Origin: Fibrobacteria bacterium
Lineage (GTDB): Bacteria > Fibrobacterota > Chitinivibrionia > Chitinivibrionales > FEN-1185
Assembly: GCA_037447435.1 (NCBI GenBank)
Contig: JBBIGR010000011.1
Coordinates: 45,002 to 109,001 of the forward strand
Direction: 5' to 3'
DNA: 64,000 nt
A program made the translations under genes and the position numbers. The notes below the pieces were generated by a model. That model worked only from the letters and a program-made list of their open reading frames with translations, was not told where the DNA came from and made no database searches. This document shows positions 1,216 through 11,177 of this stretch, in pieces; within the stretch, counting starts at the first letter, position 1; the number at the start of each line of letters is the position of its first letter.

Positions 1216-1289
1216 TAAAACTCATACTATATTTCGTCAGCGGTATCATATTTCTTGCTAACACTCAATTGGTTTACATCGGAGGTTAC

Positions 1290-3380
1290 ATGAAGAAGTA
1301 CGAGGCGAATGCTATCCGCAATGTTTGCTTGCTTTCACACGGCGGTGTGGGCAAAACTTCCCTTCTTGAAGCTTTGTGTTATACGACAAAAGGTACCAAC
1401 AAATTAAATAAAGTTGCCAACGGAACCAGCATATTCGACACACGTCCCGATGAAAAAGAACGTAAAATGTCGGTTTCTATGAAGCTGGGCTTTTGTGAAT
1501 GGAATAACGTTAAGATAAATATTCTCGACACACCCGGTTTTCTTGATTTGCAAGGTGATGCAAAGGCTGCTTTACGCGTCGTTGAATCCGCCGTTGTTTT
1601 AATAAGCGCTCTTGATGGAGTGCAAGTCGGTACCGAACTCATATCTCGTTTTATAGATGAATCAAAAACGCCCAAACTGTTTTTTGTAAACGGTACGGAC
1701 AGGGATAATGTCGATTTCGAGAAAACAATCGCAAATTTAAAAGAAATGTACGGCACCCAAATAGCGCCATTATCAATACCGATCGGCGCGGGACAATCTT
1801 TTAAGGGTATCGTAGATCTTGTTACAAAAGAGGCTTTCATCTATGAACGAGAAGGCCTTGGAATCGGTAAAAAATCGGATATTCCTTCGGACATTTCCAA
1901 AATGGTAGATAGTATCCGGGCGACGCTCATGGAATCTGTTGCTGAAACGGATGAAAGTCTCATGAACAAATATTTCGAAAATGGTGAATTGACCATAGAA
2001 GAAATAAAACTCGGATTGGCAAAAGGATTTGAAGCCGGATCAATATTCCCTGTTCTTTGTGGGAGTGCAACTCTCAACATTGGAACCGATATTTTATTGA
2101 ACACAATTATTTCCCTATGCCCGTCACCATTATCGAGAAAAACCATTCCTGTGCTGCAGGATGACGAAATAAAAAATCTATCATTTACCGAATCCAGTCC
2201 GGCATCGGCATTTGTTTTTAAAACAATAGCTGAAGAACATATTGGCGATTTCAATTGTGTCCGGGTATTCGGCGGAAAAATTTCAACAGGTAAAGACATT
2301 ATTAATGTAACGAGAAACAGCACCGAGCGAATTGGAAATATGTATTTCATGCGGGGACACGAACGAATAGATACACAGGAAATCGGGTTCGGCGATATCG
2401 GTGCGCTTTTAAAAATGAAAGATACCCATACGAGTGATACTTTGGCTGAAAAAGGAGTGTTGTTCGCATTTCCAAAGATTAAATTCAATGAACCATTGGT
2501 TAATGTCGCAATTGTGTCCAAAAACAAGGGCGATGAAGATAAAATCGGTTTGGGAATAGCCAAACTTCATGAAGAAGATCCGACTTTTATTTATAAATAT
2601 CATGCCGATATTAAGCAATCGGTTTTGTCTGCAATGGGCGACATTCATATCGATTTAATACTCGAAAATTTAAAGCATCGCTTTAAAGTGGAAGTCGAAA
2701 AAAAACAAACGAGAATTTCTTACCGGGAAACAATCACCAAATCTGTCAAATATGTCGAATATACTCATAAAAAACAATCGGGCGGTGCCGGTCAATATGC
2801 AAAAGTGGCCATCGATTTGGAACCCCAACAACGAGGCAAGGGATACGAATTTGTCGATAAAATTGTGGGCGGCGTCATAGACCAGTCCTTGCGGCCAAGT
2901 GTCGACAAAGGGGTTCATTCGAAGCTTGAAGAGGGGATATTGGCAGGGTATCCGATTGTCGATTTAAAAGTGTACCTTGTCGATGGAAAAACCCATCCCG
3001 TGGATTCAAAAGACATTGCTTTTCAAATAGCCGGACGGGAAGTTTTTAAAATAGCCTTTGAGCAGGCGAGCCCAATACTATTGGAACCTATTTCCGACAT
3101 GCGAATTACGGTTCCCGATGAATATACAGGAGATGTTATGGGAGATCTATCTTCGCGTCGGGGAAAAATTGGCGGCATGGAACCGGAAGGAAAAGCACAA
3201 ACCATCGTAGCGAAAGTTCCCGAAGCGGAAATACAAAACTATTCCCAGGCATTGCGTGCATTATCGCAAGGACGAGGATATTTCTCCAAGTCCTTTTCCC
3301 ATTACGAACCTGTTCCAGGTGACGTTGCCAAGAAAATCATCGAATCATCTAAGCATTCGATGACAGAAGTTGATGAATGA
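1290..3380 (+). CDS. fusA2: Elongation factor G-like protein (EF-G2 type)
   Basis: HGGVGKTS P-loop, DTPG, EEDPT, YRETI, KKQSGGAGQYA, LLEPI, GDLSSRRG; not in a str operon; GGAGG RBS before ATG 1290. Confidence 0.93.
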   Translation: MKKYEANAIRNVCLLSHGGVGKTSLLEALCYTTKGTNKLNKVANGTSIFDTRPDEKERKMSVSMKLGFCEWNNVKINILDTPGFLDLQGDAKAALRVVESAVVLISALDGVQVGTELISRFIDESKTPKLFFVNGTDRDNVDFEKTIANLKEMYGTQIAPLSIPIGAGQSFKGIVDLVTKEAFIYEREGLGIGKKSDIPSDISKMVDSIRATLMESVAETDESLMNKYFENGELTIEEIKLGLAKGFEAGSIFPVLCGSATLNIGTDILLNTIISLCPSPLSRKTIPVLQDDEIKNLSFTESSPASAFVFKTIAEEHIGDFNCVRVFGGKISTGKDIINVTRNSTERIGNMYFMRGHERIDTQEIGFGDIGALLKMKDTHTSDTLAEKGVLFAFPKIKFNEPLVNVAIVSKNKGDEDKIGLGIAKLHEEDPTFIYKYHADIKQSVLSAMGDIHIDLILENLKHRFKVEVEKKQTRISYRETITKSVKYVEYTHKKQSGGAGQYAKVAIDLEPQQRGKGYEFVDKIVGGVIDQSLRPSVDKGVHSKLEEGILAGYPIVDLKVYLVDGKTHPVDSKDIAFQIAGREVFKIAFEQASPILLEPISDMRITVPDEYTGDVMGDLSSRRGKIGGMEPEGKAQTIVAKVPEAEIQNYSQALRALSQGRGYFSKSFSHYEPVPGDVAKKIIESSKHSMTEVDE

Positions 3381-4757: not shown

Positions 4758-5621
4758 TCAGTTGCCAATTTTATAGGTTGTTCGGAATTTCCAAAGAGGA
4801 GAACCTTTTGCAAAATGAGGCATGAGCCTGCCTCGAGCAAGGGTATGCGAAAAATAGGGTTGGCGAACTGCGCGTGCAATAATATCCTGAACCGAGTCAT
4901 ATGAATATGCACCCCACAACGGTATGATATCGGCAAAATTTTTTCCTTTTAATACGTACGACGTTGCATGGGTATACCCAACTTTCTTCGCAGCATTCCA
5001 AACTCGTTCGTCAACCCGCCCGAACGGGAAAGATATGCTTGTCACTTCCTTTGCTATGATATCCTCAAGAATTCTTTTTGAATCACACAATTCTTTTAAT
5101 AATTCGGAATCCGAGAGTAACGTTAAATTTGCATGTGTCAATGTATGGCTTCCGATTTCATGCCCGAGCGAACTGATTTCAATAATTTGGCTTCTCGTTA
5201 AGTGGGTTTGCTTCGGCAATGCGTCCCATGATGATGTTTTGCCAAGAAAGCCGGCTACAGGGAATACAGTCGTTTTTATTCCATGACGCTCGCAGATGGG
5301 CAATGCTTTTGAATGAAACGTATCAAACCCGTCATCAAAAGTCATTACTATGGAATTTCGACGAGACAACGGAGGTAATGATGAAAAATGAGAAACCGTT
5401 ACAAATCGAAACCCTTCACCACGAAGTCGGCAGAGAAGCGAGTCGAATTTGAATGAAGAATAATATGAACAATGCATTGCCGGAATATCAGAAATGGAAT
5501 GAAAAAGTAAACCGATGGGCCCGCTTGATCTTTTCTTTTTACCGAAAAATAAAACAGCGAGTATGCCGCATAAAAATGGAAAGGCAATAATGGAAAATAG
5601 TAATAAAAAAAGTATGTTCAT
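4758..5621 (-). CDS. Membrane-anchored polysaccharide deacetylase (NodB/CE4)
   Basis: N-terminal TM helix; TFDDG, EIGSHTLTH, FPFG motifs. Confidence 0.9.
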   Translation of the reverse strand: MNILFLLLFSIIAFPFLCGILAVLFFGKKKRSSGPIGLLFHSISDIPAMHCSYYSSFKFDSLLCRLRGEGFRFVTVSHFSSLPPLSRRNSIVMTFDDGFDTFHSKALPICERHGIKTTVFPVAGFLGKTSSWDALPKQTHLTRSQIIEISSLGHEIGSHTLTHANLTLLSDSELLKELCDSKRILEDIIAKEVTSISFPFGRVDERVWNAAKKVGYTHATSYVLKGKNFADIIPLWGAYSYDSVQDIIARAVRQPYFSHTLARGRLMPHFAKGSPLWKFRTTYKIGN

Positions 5622-5642: not shown

Positions 5643-6509
5643 TTAATGGTTTTGTTGACGGTTAAAAATTTTCGACAATAGATTGGAATCGTTCTTTTTC
5701 TTTGCGCCGGTAGCGCCTTGTCTTGCTTTGTTTTTAAGAAAATTTACCGATGTGTAATACAGATATTCGGTATTGCTTGGCGGCGGAACACTGCCTGTTT
5801 TTATGGGTGAGCCGCTATTTGAAATGCTTTTTTCAAGCTCTGATGTCGTAGTTGGAACCTGTTCCGAAACCTTGGCTGGAGTTTCTTGAATCGTAAATTT
5901 TTGGGTCGCGGGAGGGTTCGGATGTCCGGCGGCAATTTCATCGGGATTAACCAGATTTTTTTTCCCGATATTTTCCGTTTGCTGTGTCTGAGATTGCAAA
6001 GATGATTGTTGCTCGGGGTTAAAAAAGGAATCAATTCCTTTTTCAACATCATCATCTGACATGGTTAAAGAAGGCATTGCCACAGGGCCAGAAAGCATTG
6101 TTTCTATATTTTGTTTAATTGCAAATAGTGCCGCTTTCAGTTCCTCTATATGGCGAGCAACGCTTGAAGAAACAGCCGATAAGGAAATTTGGCGGTCAAA
6201 TATAGCTGCACAAATCGTGTCGTCGTCGACAAGCGTGATAAGAAGATTTTTTGTTTTTCCGCAGTGAGACATCATGCTGAATTCCTTTTCGCCAATAAGG
6301 CCAGCAATTCCCTGCGTGGAAGCGAAGCTTCCAACAATGAGGGCAGCAAGTGCGGACATGTCGAAAAGGGCCAACGTTCCCTGGCTGGCAAGAAGCCTTG
6401 TATCTTTATTAACAAGGATCGCCGACAGGATCTTCGTCTCAAAAACAAGACTTTGCAGAATCGAATTCAACCTGTCGATGTCTTCCTTGTAAAGGATGAC
6501 GTCGCTCAT
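5643..6509 (-). CDS. mglB: MglB-like roadblock/LC7 protein with long C-terminal extension
   Basis: [22 protein letters not shown] core and [13 protein letters not shown] acidic helix resemble Myxococcus MglB; ATGA overlap with the mglA stop. Confidence 0.85.
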
Positions 6510-7852
6510 TGAGGTTTGTCTTTATTAAATATTTTGCCAAAGAAGCCGCTTTGCGGTTTTGTCTTCGGATTAACCGGCCTTTTTATTTTTTTTCTCTGAC
6601 GATCTGTGTTGACAGAGGTGAAATAGAGAGGCTGTTCCTCTTCGCCGGGCTGCAACGGCTCTTCGGAGTAATTCTGTTGCGGATATTGCGGAATTTGCTC
6701 CGCAGATTCCTCAGGCGGTTCATAGACGTTGTAACTCCCTTGTTGCGGAGGAGGATACGCTATTGGTTGTGTTTGTTGAGGGGAAGCCGGTTGTTGCAAC
6801 GGTTGGGGTTGCTGTGCCGATTGAAGGTTTCGTAATTTACGTTGTTTTTCTTCAATTTCTCTTTGATATTTTTCAATTTCCAAATCAAGTTCTGTTTTTT
6901 CGGCGGACGACGGTTTGAGTTCTTGACTGGAGTAACCAGATGTTTCAGGTTTTTGAAATGGTGATGATGCTTGAGCCGACATTGGTTCAAGGTTAATGGC
7001 GCCATAATCATAATAATCTGATGCCGGCGGTTGTTGCATAGGCGCTTTAGTAGGAGCCGGTTGAATCGGAGTAGGTTGCGGTACCGAAAAAATGTCTTGT
7101 TGCGGCATTGGTTGCGCAGCAAAAGGGCTCTGTTGGGCAATAGGTCGTTGCTGTTGTTGAACAAAAAACGGATCCTGAGCTGGAACAGGCTTGGGTTGTA
7201 TGCGTTGAGGAGCAGGCGAAGCTATTGGGGCGGCTTGAGGTGTCGGAGCCCCATAGGTTGGTCTGGCATATTTTTTATTCAAACTGTCGATAACAATTTT
7301 TCCAATTATTTTAAGCGATTCGAAAACGCCTTTGCCCTGGCTGGCAACGGCTTCATTCCATTGGTATCCTAATTTATTAACGGTTTTATCAATCGCTTCT
7401 ACAGGGAGTGCATTCGGAAGATCTCTTTTATTGTATTGCAAAACAATCGGGACGCTTCCTGGTTGATAACCATATTCAGCAAGATTGTCATGAAGGTTTT
7501 GAAGGCTTTCAAGGTTTTCCTGCATTTTGTCTTGAGCAGAATCAACGACAAACACAACGCCATCAACGCCGCGCAAAACAAGTTTGCGGGTTGCATTATA
7601 ATAGACTTGCCCCGGAACCGTGTACAATTGAAACTTTGTCGAAAAACCTTTGATCTTGCCTAAGTCAAGCGGCAGAAAATCAAAAAACAAAGTTCTGTCG
7701 GTTTCAGTGGCCAACGAAACCATATCACTTCTATAATCAATGGGGATTTTCCGGTGAATAACCTGTAAATTTGTTGTTTTTCCGCTTAGCCCAGGACCAT
7801 AATAAACAATTTTTACACTAATTTCCCTTATTGCGTAATTAATGGAAGCCAT
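6506..7852 (-). CDS. mglA: MglA family small GTPase with about 250-aa Pro/Gln-rich tail
   Basis: [45 protein letters not shown]. Confidence 0.95.
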
Positions 7853-9071: not shown

Positions 9072-11177
9072 TTATTCTCCCCGAATTTTCATTTCTTTAA
9101 CAAGCAAAGATGCTGCGCGCCCGATAAAAAACGCGTTATACAAAACGCACAAGACAAAAAACGGCAAAATAACTCCATGTAAAAGCCACGATGGAAAAAC
9201 AATGGCTGGGAAGAGAATGAATGAGTAAATTCCATAAACGATGCTTGTTAAAAGTAGGATGGGAATCGACAGCCACATCGTCGAATTTCTTTGGACCATT
9301 CCTGCACCGGGAAAAACAACATCGAGGATCAGGGCCCGCAGAGAAGAAAGACGTACGCTTTTAAATTGGATCTTCGACATTATTCTTTGCCGGATGCTTT
9401 CGTTGCGGATATGTTGGGTCGAGTTAAAGCAATCCTGGCAAATTCCTCCTCGTTTGCATTTACGGCAAATAGGTGTCTGGCACAGCTTGCAAGAATAAAT
9501 TTTCTTGACAACATCGCGGGACCAAACGGTCATATCCGATACTATCAGGATGCAAAAAAGAATAAGTGAAAGTATTGCATAAATAAAGAAGGAAAAACCA
9601 AAAAAAGTGACGCCGAACCTTTTGTCAACGCCTTGCGAATGGTTTGCGGAATACGTGAAAATATGTTTCCAAAAGTAGCCCGGAGTATAATCGGGTGATA
9701 TTAACTGCCTGGCGATGGGCCAATCTTTGGAAAAAAAATCATCGCTTATTTTAATATGGGAATTTATCAGGAGTGGATTTATCCTTGCTGCTTTGGAAAT
9801 ATACTCCATACCTTTTGCTGTTTCCATTGCATTAAAAAAATATTGGCCGCAATTAAAATAGGCTGGCGCAAAATTAAAATTTGATTCGATGCATTCGAGA
9901 TAGGTGTTTTTCGCTTCATTCAGCTGGCCGGATTGGTACAAAACATTTCCGAGAACGGTGAGTACGACCGGGTCTGTTGGAGCCAATTGCTGCGCTTGTC
10001 TTATGTGAGATAACGCATTTTGGGTATCTTGCTTCCTTAAATATGAAACTGCCATGCCCGTATGAATCAAAAAATTCGACGAATTTGTTTGTGTTGACTT
10101 TTGTAAATATTCCTCAAATTCAGGATAATATCCTTCGTCGAGCGATTTTTTTAATAACATCGGTGCGCTTGCAGGGTCATTGCACATGTAAAACATATCG
10201 TCGACCTTTAAATTTAAAGGATATAGCATGAAAATTCCCAAGACTATACCTCCAAGGACCTTGTCGCGACCGTGCAAATGGCGCCAAAGGAGGAAAAAAG
10301 TGATCCAAATCCATGCGGTAAATCCAATAAATATCAAAGCGAAGAACAGTGCGCTCGATAATAAAACCCTGGTTTTAATGCTATATTTTTTGGGAAGCAA
10401 CTCCGAAACCGAATGCAATGATTGGGGGAGGTATTTTGCCAGCAAAGTACCAATAATTCCTACGACAAAAAATTCGAATACAATGGTAAGCCAGGTGTGT
10501 AATTGGTAAACAAGTTCCAATTGAATTTCCCATGAATTCAATACCTTTTCGTACAGATCCTTAATTTTTAAAAAAGCATTTTGGGGGTTTGGGTAGAGGT
10601 TCGATTTAATATCTAATATCAATGGCCATATGCAATTCCTGTCGAATATGCCTGCCCAAGATCTCTGGGAACCGTTTAATGAGCTTGTCGAGGAATAAAC
10701 ATCGTTATACAAAAGGATTTGGCTAACTAATGGCGCCGATTGGATACCGCGCATCAAGGACAATAGCCTCAATTTTGTAAGACATTTTTCCTGCCACAAA
10801 GGTAAACCGCAGCGTTCAAATTCCAAAGATAATGCAAAAATCGATCCGGGATCCGATTTGGTTGCGGAAATGGCTTTCGAAAACCAAATAGAAGAAACAG
10901 ATGCGGTATCATTGCTGTTTGCTAATCCGATGCAAAAACAATACCATACCGACATTGTGTCAAAAGTTAATGTATTTACGTTGATGGAAAACCCTGAAGC
11001 CGGATACAGGGATAATCGTGTTGAGTCTAAGCCGGTCAATTTAAATACGCTATCCCGGGTGGTAAGAGCGGAAATGAATTCGGATTCCCAAAGAATAGGC
11101 AATTCACGGGCTGTCGATCGAATGACCGACAACGAAATAATTATGAGAAGCGCACAGGAAATAAAACGATTTTTCAT
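9072..11177 (-). CDS. Polytopic membrane protein with TPR repeats and Cys zinc finger
   Basis: Signal peptide, several TM segments, TPR helices (LGNVLYQSG, AYFNCGQYF), CKLC-x4-CRKC-x5-CQDC, FPGAG. Confidence 0.75.
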   Translation of the reverse strand: MKNRFISCALLIIISLSVIRSTARELPILWESEFISALTTRDSVFKLTGLDSTRLSLYPASGFSINVNTLTFDTMSVWYCFCIGLANSNDTASVSSIWFSKAISATKSDPGSIFALSLEFERCGLPLWQEKCLTKLRLLSLMRGIQSAPLVSQILLYNDVYSSTSSLNGSQRSWAGIFDRNCIWPLILDIKSNLYPNPQNAFLKIKDLYEKVLNSWEIQLELVYQLHTWLTIVFEFFVVGIIGTLLAKYLPQSLHSVSELLPKKYSIKTRVLLSSALFFALIFIGFTAWIWITFFLLWRHLHGRDKVLGGIVLGIFMLYPLNLKVDDMFYMCNDPASAPMLLKKSLDEGYYPEFEEYLQKSTQTNSSNFLIHTGMAVSYLRKQDTQNALSHIRQAQQLAPTDPVVLTVLGNVLYQSGQLNEAKNTYLECIESNFNFAPAYFNCGQYFFNAMETAKGMEYISKAARINPLLINSHIKISDDFFSKDWPIARQLISPDYTPGYFWKHIFTYSANHSQGVDKRFGVTFFGFSFFIYAILSLILFCILIVSDMTVWSRDVVKKIYSCKLCQTPICRKCKRGGICQDCFNSTQHIRNESIRQRIMSKIQFKSVRLSSLRALILDVVFPGAGMVQRNSTMWLSIPILLLTSIVYGIYSFILFPAIVFPSWLLHGVILPFFVLCVLYNAFFIGRAASLLVKEMKIRGE

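What the first reader, a model, noticed from the sequence alone, without database searches (positions are those of the whole stretch)
5643..7852. MglA and MglB both end in the same appended tail module (LY[FY]TSVN - basic linker - KIFN)
Seen: MglA is 448 aa and MglB 288 aa, each with an intact core plus a long low-complexity tail. MglA ends LYFTSVN-24 aa-KIFN-5 aa (motif at 6608-6628). MglB ends LYYTSVN-23 aa-KIFN-5 aa (motif at 5742-5762). The linkers are Lys/Arg-rich. Five of the six identical motif residues use different codons (CTC TAT TTC ACC TCT GTC AAC vs CTG TAT TAC ACA TCG GTA AAT), so this is not a recent DNA duplication. Known: Myxococcus MglA (about 195 aa) and MglB (about 160 aa) have no such tails and are localised by partners such as RomR/RomX/MglC; GFFGKIF resembles the MinD membrane-targeting helix. 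Inference: a self-anchoring polarity switch in which the GTPase and its GAP dock on the membrane, or compete for one receptor, through a shared peptide.
Basis: partly seen in the sequence, partly recalled or inferred. Interest (0 to 1): 0.85.

Follow-up and report, generated by a model that had tools for sequence, protein, structure and literature searches.

The report
GTPase and its GAP share tails
In one genus of uncultured Fibrobacterota, the polarity GTPase MglA and its off-switch MglB both end in a conserved short motif followed by a basic stretch and a predicted membrane-binding helix, which likely lets the off-switch reach and compete for the same membrane site as the GTPase.

Summary
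A profile built only from MglA tails of other families ranks this MglB second of 7082 ORFs (E 0.005); profile against profile gives 96%. The tails are not the same module, though. The MglA end (acidic-[ML][YF]FTS[VI][ND], basic run, PxNP, amphipathic helix) is conserved across the order Chitinivibrionales (62 of 81 genomes, strong match). MglB carries a near-full match only in this genus (6 of 6 genomes; motif in 35 of 41 related proteins), a decayed form in the sister genus, and never PxNP. The shared 'KIFN' is peculiar to this genome. The MglB motif looks inserted into an older MglB helix and is more conserved than the MglB core; synonymous sites show no recent copying. Best reading: both tails are MinD/FlhG-type membrane anchors, and the motif is a docking site for a shared, unidentified partner. 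No receptor was identified. Long MglA and MglB extensions are in print, and this scan reported tailed MglA with a membrane helix before, on other DNA. The GAP copying its GTPase's tail was not found in the papers searched. New variant of a known switch.

The parts
6506..7852 (-). mglA, 448 aa: Group 1 MglA GTPase with a 250-aa Pro/Gln-rich tail
   Evidence: (PDB MglA, E 1e-73)
7268..7852 (-). MglA G domain (aa 1-195): G1 [10 protein letters not shown]53, T54, TVPGQ with Q82, NKRD; F57 and F59 (MglB face; F56 also invariant); L64, I67, K181, K185 (Ct-helix pocket)
   Evidence: (all invariant in 43 sequences except S23, nearly invariant)
6824..6892 (-). MglA internal helix aa 321-343 with a 4-3 heptad pattern (L322, I326, Y329, I333, K336, L340, L343); predicted short coiled coil
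   Evidence: (helix 321-344, pLDDT about 92); pattern in 21 of 44 and 96 of 120
6722..6733 (-). MglA YNVY (consensus Y[DE]VY) motif, about 36 aa before the FTS motif
   Evidence: (85 of 120)
6608..6628 (-). MglA LYFTSVN motif after an acidic run; order-wide consensus [ML][YF]FTS[VI][ND]
6566..6601 (-). MglA basic run RQRKKIKR and PVNP motif (PxNP is absent from MglB)
   Evidence: (37 of 44)
6521..6547 (-). MglA terminal amphipathic segment GFFGKIFNK, predicted membrane-targeting helix
   Evidence: (41 of 44)
5643..6509 (-). mglB, 288 aa: Roadblock/LC7 GAP with a 150-aa tail; the only Roadblock gene found in the genome
6021..6056 (-). MglB acidic helix [12 protein letters not shown], likely equivalent of the M. 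xanthus Ct-helix
   Evidence: helix 155-162; conservation 0.86
5715..5786 (-). Mgl[25 protein letters not shown] block; LYYTSVN (5742-5762) looks inserted into an older PSNTxYL-[KR]xK[AI] helix motif
   Evidence: (helix 246-271)
5658..5681 (-). MglB terminal amphipathic segment LLSKIFNR, predicted membrane-targeting helix
8018..9070 (-). DUF4388 protein, conserved upstream neighbour
9072..11177 (-). TPR protein with several hydrophobic segments and a CxxC cluster, conserved upstream neighbour
4758..5621 (-). polysaccharide deacetylase, conserved downstream neighbour

Best explanation
This is an intact MglA/MglB GTPase-GAP pair in which both proteins end in a conserved aromatic-T-S motif, a basic stretch and an amphipathic segment that is predicted to bind the inner membrane, and the MglB copy of the motif likely brings the GAP to the same docking site that MglA uses, where it would displace or switch off MglA. 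Shown: catalytic cores intact; the MglA end is conserved across the order; MglB of this family acquired a partial match that is strongly conserved in this genus; no recent DNA copying. Inferred: (1) basic run plus helix gives weak, valency-dependent membrane binding as in MinD/FlhG, made stronger by the MglB dimer and perhaps by the MglA coiled coil; (2) the YFTS motif is a short linear motif read by a protein partner, because F and S are nearly invariant, more than membrane contact alone would need; (3) the tails replace separate localisers such as RomR, which was not found; (4) the output is probably type IV pilus polarity. The partner is not identified.
For: Cores. Order-wide MglA end: of 44 complete long MglA, 34 have the FTS pattern, 37 PxNP and 41 the terminal helix pattern; 62 of 81 order genomes match the tail profile at E below 1e-9; F and S in 117 of 117 motif-bearing proteins among 120 (that set is ranked partly on the tail and so biased). 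MglB match: HMM rank 2 of 7082, E 0.0054; hhalign 95.8%, 42 columns, score 50 against at most 16.6 in 40 column shuffles and at most 15 for MglA tails of other orders; a second near-full match in 6 of 6 genomes of this genus, each at the MglB end, and in none of the other 75. Selection: MglB motif columns 0.93 conserved against 0.82 for the core and 0.46 for the linker (41 proteins), while synonymous codons vary. Sister genus: 9 of 15 MglB carry Y[DEK]VY 33-39 aa before the motif, the same order and spacing as in MglA (median 36, n=100). Membrane helix: the pattern ends only 15 of 3328 ORFs in the genome, among them MglA, MglB and the MinD/FlhG-like ATPase; weak, valency-dependent MTS binding from PMC6803595 (passages). 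Precedent for short motifs competing for one site in this system: PMC6785124 and PMC11135422 (passages). Pilus ATPases present; no RomR-like protein among 48 N-terminal receiver proteins by a crude composition screen.
Against: MglB lacks PxNP (0 of 41). AlphaFold2 puts the MglB motif inside a helix (246-271, pLDDT about 83 at 251-260) but leaves the MglA motif disordered (pLDDT under 50), so the two may not adopt one shape. Most of the order has no motif or helix on MglB, so the copy is dispensable elsewhere. The motifs do not decay together consistently: both are degraded in L146 and in the pair P0038/P0110, but MglB is degraded beside an intact MglA motif in L139 and L138. Hydrophobic moment alone is unremarkable: 24% and 12% of ORF ends reach the MglA and MglB values. 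AlphaFold2 did not build the terminal helix in either model. The whole module was found on no third protein among 70 hits in 1.84 billion.
Confidence: 0.5

Rival explanations
1. Look-alike with different jobs. Both tails bind membrane, but the MglB motif is now the start of MglB's own conserved helix and binds its own partner; the likeness is a relic of an old duplication of the mglA 3' end, or convergence on a helix cap.
For: The flanks PPPSNTEY (0.96) and FLKNKA (0.91) are as conserved as the motif (0.93) and have no counterpart in MglA. The helix motif is older than the insertion, being present in families f4 and f5. Predicted helix in MglB, coil in MglA. No PxNP. The sister genus keeps only SM[NS]YL.
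Against: Six of seven residues still match the MglA consensus although synonymous sites are at background (23 of 71 within loci, 36% across loci); drift from a relic would not hold the match. The terminal helices also track each other by family (FN[KR] in both proteins in f1, FG[KR] in MglA and in one of two helix-bearing MglB in f4).
Confidence: 0.25
2. Self-docking. The acidic-YFTS motif folds back on the MglA G domain, near the beta2-beta3 loop and alpha5 pocket that takes the MglB Ct-helix in Myxococcus, and the MglB copy displaces it.
For: K66, between pocket residues L64 and I67, is K in 150 of 153 motif-bearing MglA, is not K in any of the 17 long MglA from other orders, and changed in 3 of 4 independent in-order lineages that lost the motif but kept an intact end. 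The pocket is basic and the motif follows an acidic run.
Against: One loss lineage (G022) keeps K66, and motif-bearing proteins with T or Q exist (P0111, P0201, P0172; also the open-ended G013). Few independent events. The single-chain model shows no fold-back, though its switch regions are poorly predicted.
Confidence: 0.13
3. Membrane only. The aromatic motif, basic run and helix form one tripartite lipid-binding segment with no protein receptor, and both proteins converged on it.
For: Aromatic pair plus 6-8 basic residues plus amphipathic helix within 40 aa of the end. No receptor found. The neighbouring DUF4388 (350-aa type) and TPR genes were not found in two 97%-complete genomes that keep a motif variant.
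Against: Near-invariant T and S, and PxNP, are more specific than lipid contact needs. Several lineages lost motif and PxNP together but kept the helix, so they are separable modules.
Confidence: 0.12

Closest known systems
MglA/MglB polarity switch of Myxococcus xanthus and Thermus thermophilus (Group 1 MglA; PDB 3t12, 6h17, 5ymx, 6izw)
   Same: G domain with R53, T54, TVPGQ, NKRD at the same numbering; Roadblock GAP encoded next to it; acidic Ct-helix and the K181/K185 pocket kept.
   Different: MglA is 448 aa rather than about 195, MglB 288 rather than about 160; gene order mglA-mglB; both end in a predicted membrane helix; no second Roadblock protein (MglC) and no RomR-like protein found.
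Long 'Group II/MglA2' proteins, e.g. Fibrobacter succinogenes Fisuc_0226 (313 aa)
   Same: C-terminal extension of unknown function on a Group 1 core, coupled to MglB (PMC3000849 passages; PMC4316618 supplement row).
   Different: The 315-346-aa MglAs of family f10 (taken to be the Fibrobacter group from their length; inference) end in DEIELRPYVPKK, with no FTS motif or helix, and their MglB has no tail.
MglB C-terminal extensions (Baranwal et al. 2019, PMC6785124)
   Same: 66 coupled MglB with extensions over 15 aa, mostly an acidic Ct-helix, the rest Pro-rich (passages).
   Different: The passages read mention no membrane helix and no motif shared with MglA; 'amphipathic' and 'Fibrobacter' do not occur in the main text, nor 'Fibrobacter', 'Fisuc' or 'Chitini' in 7 supplements.
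MinD/MinE and FlhG membrane-targeting sequences
   Same: Works like: a nucleotide switch and its activator each carry a short amphipathic membrane helix, weak alone and strong when doubled (PMC6803595 passages). The genome's own MinD/FlhG-like ATPase ends in GFFSRLL.
   Different: Different enzyme folds (Ras-like GTPase and Roadblock GAP); helices sit at the end of long disordered tails; membrane binding untested; MinE not found in this genome.
Polybasic C-terminal anchors of eukaryotic small GTPases (K-Ras, Rit, RGK)
   Same: G domain, flexible tail, basic run and hydrophobic end (recalled; one search returned no paper that I read on it).
   Different: No homology; no lipidation signal; here the GAP carries the anchor too.

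Membership tests
Group 1 MglA | G3 motif TVPGQ | tested here: met
   aa 78-82, invariant in 43; definition from PMC4316618 passages
Group 1 MglA | Intrinsic arginine finger next to the G2 threonine | tested here: met
   R53, T54 invariant
Group 1 MglA | Coupled to an MglB gene | tested here: met
   Overlapping stop and start; Robl_LC7 over cut-off
Group 1 MglA | Small single-domain protein (under 240 aa in the survey's 'small' class) | tested here: not met
   448 aa; the survey still lists a 313-aa Fibrobacter protein as Group 1, so length does not exclude membership
Group 1 MglA | GTP hydrolysis stimulated by MglB; polar localisation | not testable with these tools
   No assay
MglB with Ct-helix | Roadblock fold related to M. 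xanthus MglB | tested here: met
   Profile hits 6izw_B at E 2e-37; model pLDDT over 90 for the core. Below the Thermus-type NCBIfam cut-off (50.7 of 200 bits)
MglB with Ct-helix | D/E-rich helix after the core plus basic alpha5 on MglA | tested here: met
   [12 protein letters not shown], helix 155-162; K181, K185 invariant
MinD/FlhG-type membrane-targeting sequence | Short basic amphipathic segment at the far C-terminus | tested here: met
   Moment 0.64 and 0.70, net +2; pattern in 15 of 3328 ORFs; conserved. Moment alone is not discriminating
MinD/FlhG-type membrane-targeting sequence | Folds as a helix on lipid and targets a fused protein to the membrane | not testable with these tools
   Not helical in the lipid-free models; needs experiment
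Myxococcus polarity module (RomR/RomX, MglC) | RomR (receiver, Pro-rich linker, Glu-rich end) and a second Roadblock protein | tested here: not met
   One Roadblock gene; no RomR-like architecture among 48 N-terminal receiver proteins by a crude composition screen; RomX and RomY not tested
One identical tail module on both proteins | All conserved elements of the MglA end present in MglB | tested here: not met
   PxNP absent in 41 of 41 MglB; motif and helix present

The most novel reading that the evidence does not exclude
A two-protein, membrane-bound pattern-forming switch: a Ras-like GTPase and its GAP each carry their own membrane helix, as MinD and MinE do, and the GAP has copied the GTPase's tail motifs to evict it from its docking site, giving self-organised polarity without RomR, RomX or MglC. 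The tail would have been gained by duplication of the mglA 3' end onto mglB, with different families keeping different motifs.
Probability: 0.2. Interest if true: 0.78.

Novelty: new variant of a known kind. Interest (0 to 1): 0.5.

Why it matters
In Myxococcus, MglA and MglB are soluble and need a set of scaffolds to reach the poles. A pair that carries its own membrane anchors and a shared docking motif would be a minimal polarity switch that can be rebuilt on supported bilayers from two proteins, which makes it directly testable whether a Ras-like GTPase and its GAP alone can form patterns. It is also a clean case of a regulator acquiring a mimic of its target's short linear motif, with natural gains and losses across one order to compare.

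Tried and rejected
Complex prediction of the MglA G domain (with GTP and Mg) and its own last 53 residues: no answer, score 0.00 in two runs, controls not folded; no evidence either way. It was the only job, so MglB core, DUF4388, the TPR proteins and the coiled-coil dimer were not tried. RNA runs: no RNA holder listed. ESM Atlas with the tail: no usable hit. GYF_2 (GltJ-type) search of the genome rang nowhere, controls included, so it is uninformative. Recent duplication or ongoing gene conversion: rejected, synonymous identity within loci 23 of 71 against 414 of 1138 across loci. A third carrier in the genome: the only ORF outscoring MglB on the 7-residue matrix besides MglA is threonyl-tRNA synthetase by its sequence, taken as chance. 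Other carriers elsewhere: of 70 hits, 29 have an MglA core, 40 look like tail fragments, 1 matches by the helix only. 'KIFN' as a conserved shared motif: rejected. DUF4388 or the neighbouring TPR protein as receptor: weakened, since DUF4388 lies near mglA in other orders without the motif and in genus g22, which lost it, and neither gene was found with these queries in G021 and G040, which keep a variant. A weak match of the tail profile to an MglB core strand (E 8-30) was not pursued. MglB tails of families f4 and f5 against the MglA tail: hhalign under 20%, not counted as support. Two scripts stopped on my own parsing error; the missing parts were rerun, except a listing of the genes around the tRNA synthetase.

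Full report
Observation. The two genes lie on the minus strand, mglA at 6506-7852 (448 aa) and mglB at 5643-6509 (288 aa), with overlapping stop and start. Both cores are intact: MglA matches solved MglA structures at E 1e-73 and keeps R53, T54, TVPGQ, NKRD and the residues L64, I67, K181, K185 that form the Ct-helix pocket in M. xanthus (PMC6785124, passages). An MglB alignment matches M. xanthus MglB at E 2e-37. Named relatives are Fibrobacterota, several labelled Chitinivibrionales.

Is the match more than chance? Three tests kept MglB out of the query. An HMM from 29 MglA tails of other families scored 7082 ORFs of this genome: MglA first, MglB 247-286 second (E 0.0054), next 0.096. Profile against profile, 27 non-family MglA tails and 41 MglB tails of this genus align over 42 columns at 95.8%, score 50, against at most 16.6 in 40 column shuffles and at most 15 for MglA tails of three other families outside the order. 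A 47-position tail profile run over 81 genomes of the order gave a second near-full match in 6 of 6 genomes of this genus, each at the MglB end, and in none of the other 75. The match is real.

The MglA tail is old and order-wide. Long MglA is the rule in the phylum (174 of 201 genomes have MglA, the best match mostly in frames of 300-850 aa). Of 46 long in-order MglA, 44 were complete: 34 have [YF]F[TS][ST][VIM], 37 PxNP, 41 a terminal amphipathic pattern, 21 the IEKYQxE helix by a strict pattern (one of the 44, G028, is probably truncated). The tail profile matches 65 of 81 genomes, 62 at E below 1e-9. Other orders have different ends: one family keeps a KKKGFFDGLF helix without the motif, others have neither. 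In 1.84 billion representatives the full module gave 70 hits: 29 MglA, 40 apparent tail fragments, 1 helix-only.

The MglB copy is partial and local. Among 41 MglB proteins close to this one (P0001-P0042 without the fragment P0040), 35 have LY[FY]TS[VM]N and none has PxNP; motif columns are 0.93 conserved, the flanks 0.96 and 0.91, the core 0.82, the linker 0.46. On a tree of concatenated cores of 58 genomes, the motif maps to one clade, this genus plus G007. The third genus of the family (G006) has a 131-aa MglB without a tail. Families f4 and f5 have an older helix motif (PSNTAYLRIKIRE, DTNYLYLKNKIRE); the genus profile aligns to f4 with an 8-residue gap at the motif, so the motif looks inserted. 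The sister genus keeps only xSM[NS]YL, but 9 of 15 of its MglB (P0043-P0057, one a fragment) have Y[DEK]VY 33-39 aa upstream, the order and spacing seen in MglA (median 36, n=100), although Y[DE]VY occurs only 9 times in 1.95 million residues of this genome's ORFs (a pattern noticed after the fact). That profile aligns collinearly with the MglA tail over 66 columns but weakly (9%, score 21.8, 0 of 40 shuffles). An old duplication of the mglA 3' end onto mglB explains this best; parallel adaptation to the same partners is not excluded. Synonymous codons in the motif agree no more within a locus (23 of 71) than across loci (414 of 1138), so copying is not recent. 'KIFN' itself is a local coincidence.

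Structure. AlphaFold2 with 43 sequences leaves the MglA tail disordered except helix 321-344, which has a three-heptad pattern; the motif has pLDDT under 50 and the switch regions are also poor. With 52 sequences MglB shows the Roadblock core, a helix at 155-162 and a helix at 246-271 that contains the motif. Neither terminal segment is built as a helix, as expected without lipid (own knowledge). The terminal pattern ends 15 of 3328 ORFs of 200 aa or more, including MglA, MglB and the MinD/FlhG-like ATPase at C31:43438-44253; hydrophobic moment alone does not single them out (24% and 12% of ends score as high).

Context. TPR gene, DUF4388 gene, mglA, mglB and a deacetylase are collinear in most in-order loci: DUF4388 and TPR lie upstream in 13 of 13 fetched non-f9 loci (L077-L079, L085-L094) and in 0 of 5 f9 loci within the stretch fetched. 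In f9, three of five genomes have the pair elsewhere; in G021 and G040 (97% complete) they were not found with these queries, yet MglA keeps a motif variant, PxNP and the helix. The genome has three PilB/GspE-like and two PilT/U-like ATPases, one Roadblock gene, no MinE match, and no RomR-like protein by a crude screen. Type IV pili are reported in all Fibrobacteres genomes examined (PMC4704652, passages).

A lead for self-docking. MglA K66, in the loop between L64 and I67, is K in 150 of 153 motif-bearing complete sequences, never K in 17 long MglA of other orders, and changed in 3 of 4 independent in-order losses with an intact end (genus g22, G010, P0110; kept in G022). Against it: motif-bearing proteins with T or Q exist, and the events are few. 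Sequences that end abruptly with K66 look like truncations and were not counted as losses.

Mechanism. Shown: intact switch, conserved ends, selection on the MglB copy. Inferred: basic run plus helix anchor each protein weakly to the inner membrane, with valency (MglB dimer, possible MglA coiled coil) setting residence as for MinD (PMC6803595, passages); the YFTS motif is read by a protein; the MglB copy targets the GAP to the same site. Competition of short motifs for one site is documented in this system: the RomR Glu-rich helix can replace the MglB Ct-helix (PMC6785124), and MglA-GTP and the GltJ zinc ribbon compete for one linker motif (PMC11135422, passages). Whether RomRX is a GEF is disputed (PMC13408092, abstract). 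I give this reading 0.5; look-alike with separate jobs 0.25; self-docking 0.13; lipid only 0.12. Motif decay in the two proteins is not consistently coupled, which counts against a strict shared receptor.

What is known. [quoted passage not shown] MglB extensions are in print (PMC6785124). RomR distribution: PMC3441718 (passages). Searches for MglA+MglB+C-terminal extension+GTPase, MglA+Fibrobacter (23), DUF4388 (35), MglA+amphipathic helix+membrane (69), MglB+polarity+Fibrobacterota (75; no listed paper held the third term) and MglA+MglB+Chitinispirill (98; 0 papers) showed, from listings and the passages read, no description of a membrane helix or shared motif on both partners; the library lacks most subscription papers. 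This scan's own notes already report tailed MglA with a MinD-like helix and the four-gene cluster on other DNA; look-ups by the MglB sequence and by words returned nothing.

Verdict. A real, selected, genus-level mimicry of the MglA tail by its GAP, on top of an order-wide MglA membrane-anchor module. New variant of a known kind; interest 0.5, limited by the narrow range of the MglB copy and the missing receptor.

Noticed in passing
G000:C2:208149-210740 (-); L162:5150-7741: 863-aa protein with N- and C-terminal TPRs and an acidic linker holding five copies of [ST]G[DSE]D[VI]xxR[LM]xx[LMI]F, two genes upstream of a pilT/pilU gene. The repeat (1-8 copies) was found in 24 of 30 relative loci and resembles the MglB Ct-helix: this MglB ranks 20 of 7082 on a repeat matrix, and some MglB of other orders rank 1-13. 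It also has a recurring acidic-FY[TS]xxG motif. Candidate polar hub for MglA.
   Followed up: partly
L041, L042, L044, L045, L077, L078, L087, L090 (MglB tails of family f5): These MglB tails carry acidic-[VI][FY]Y[ILM][DE], which resembles the Y[DE]VY motif of MglA tails; possibly a second, independent case of motif sharing. Profile support is weak (up to 18%).
   Followed up: partly
L093, L094, L013 (genus g22): MglA lost the FTS and PxNP motifs but kept the terminal helix, and K66 and G128 changed; a natural deletion control.
   Followed up: partly
L097-L100: Several family f5 genomes have a second, short MglA (213-230 aa) with no MglB detected in the fetched stretch.
   Followed up: no
L058:1501-3162 (G020): A 554-aa MglB-like protein on a different contig from mglA ends in RRGLFRRLRKDD, another Roadblock protein with a predicted membrane helix.
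   Followed up: no
L110 and L122: mglA is split into a 191-195-aa core frame and a separate tail frame; frameshift or assembly error not resolved.
   Followed up: no
L061-L076, L095, L096: Other orders of the phylum have their own conserved MglA ends (KLPxPxEKKKGFFDGLF; YPTRRMPLGP; DEIELRPYVPKK), suggesting repeated replacement of the terminal docking module.
   Followed up: no
window 1269-3380 (+): EF-G-like protein whose P-loop region reads GGVGKTS with DTPGFLD, a divergent EF-G paralogue.
   Followed up: no
G000:C17:22835-24694 and C2:230692-231147: Two further DUF4388 proteins (619 and 151 aa) in the genome.
   Followed up: no
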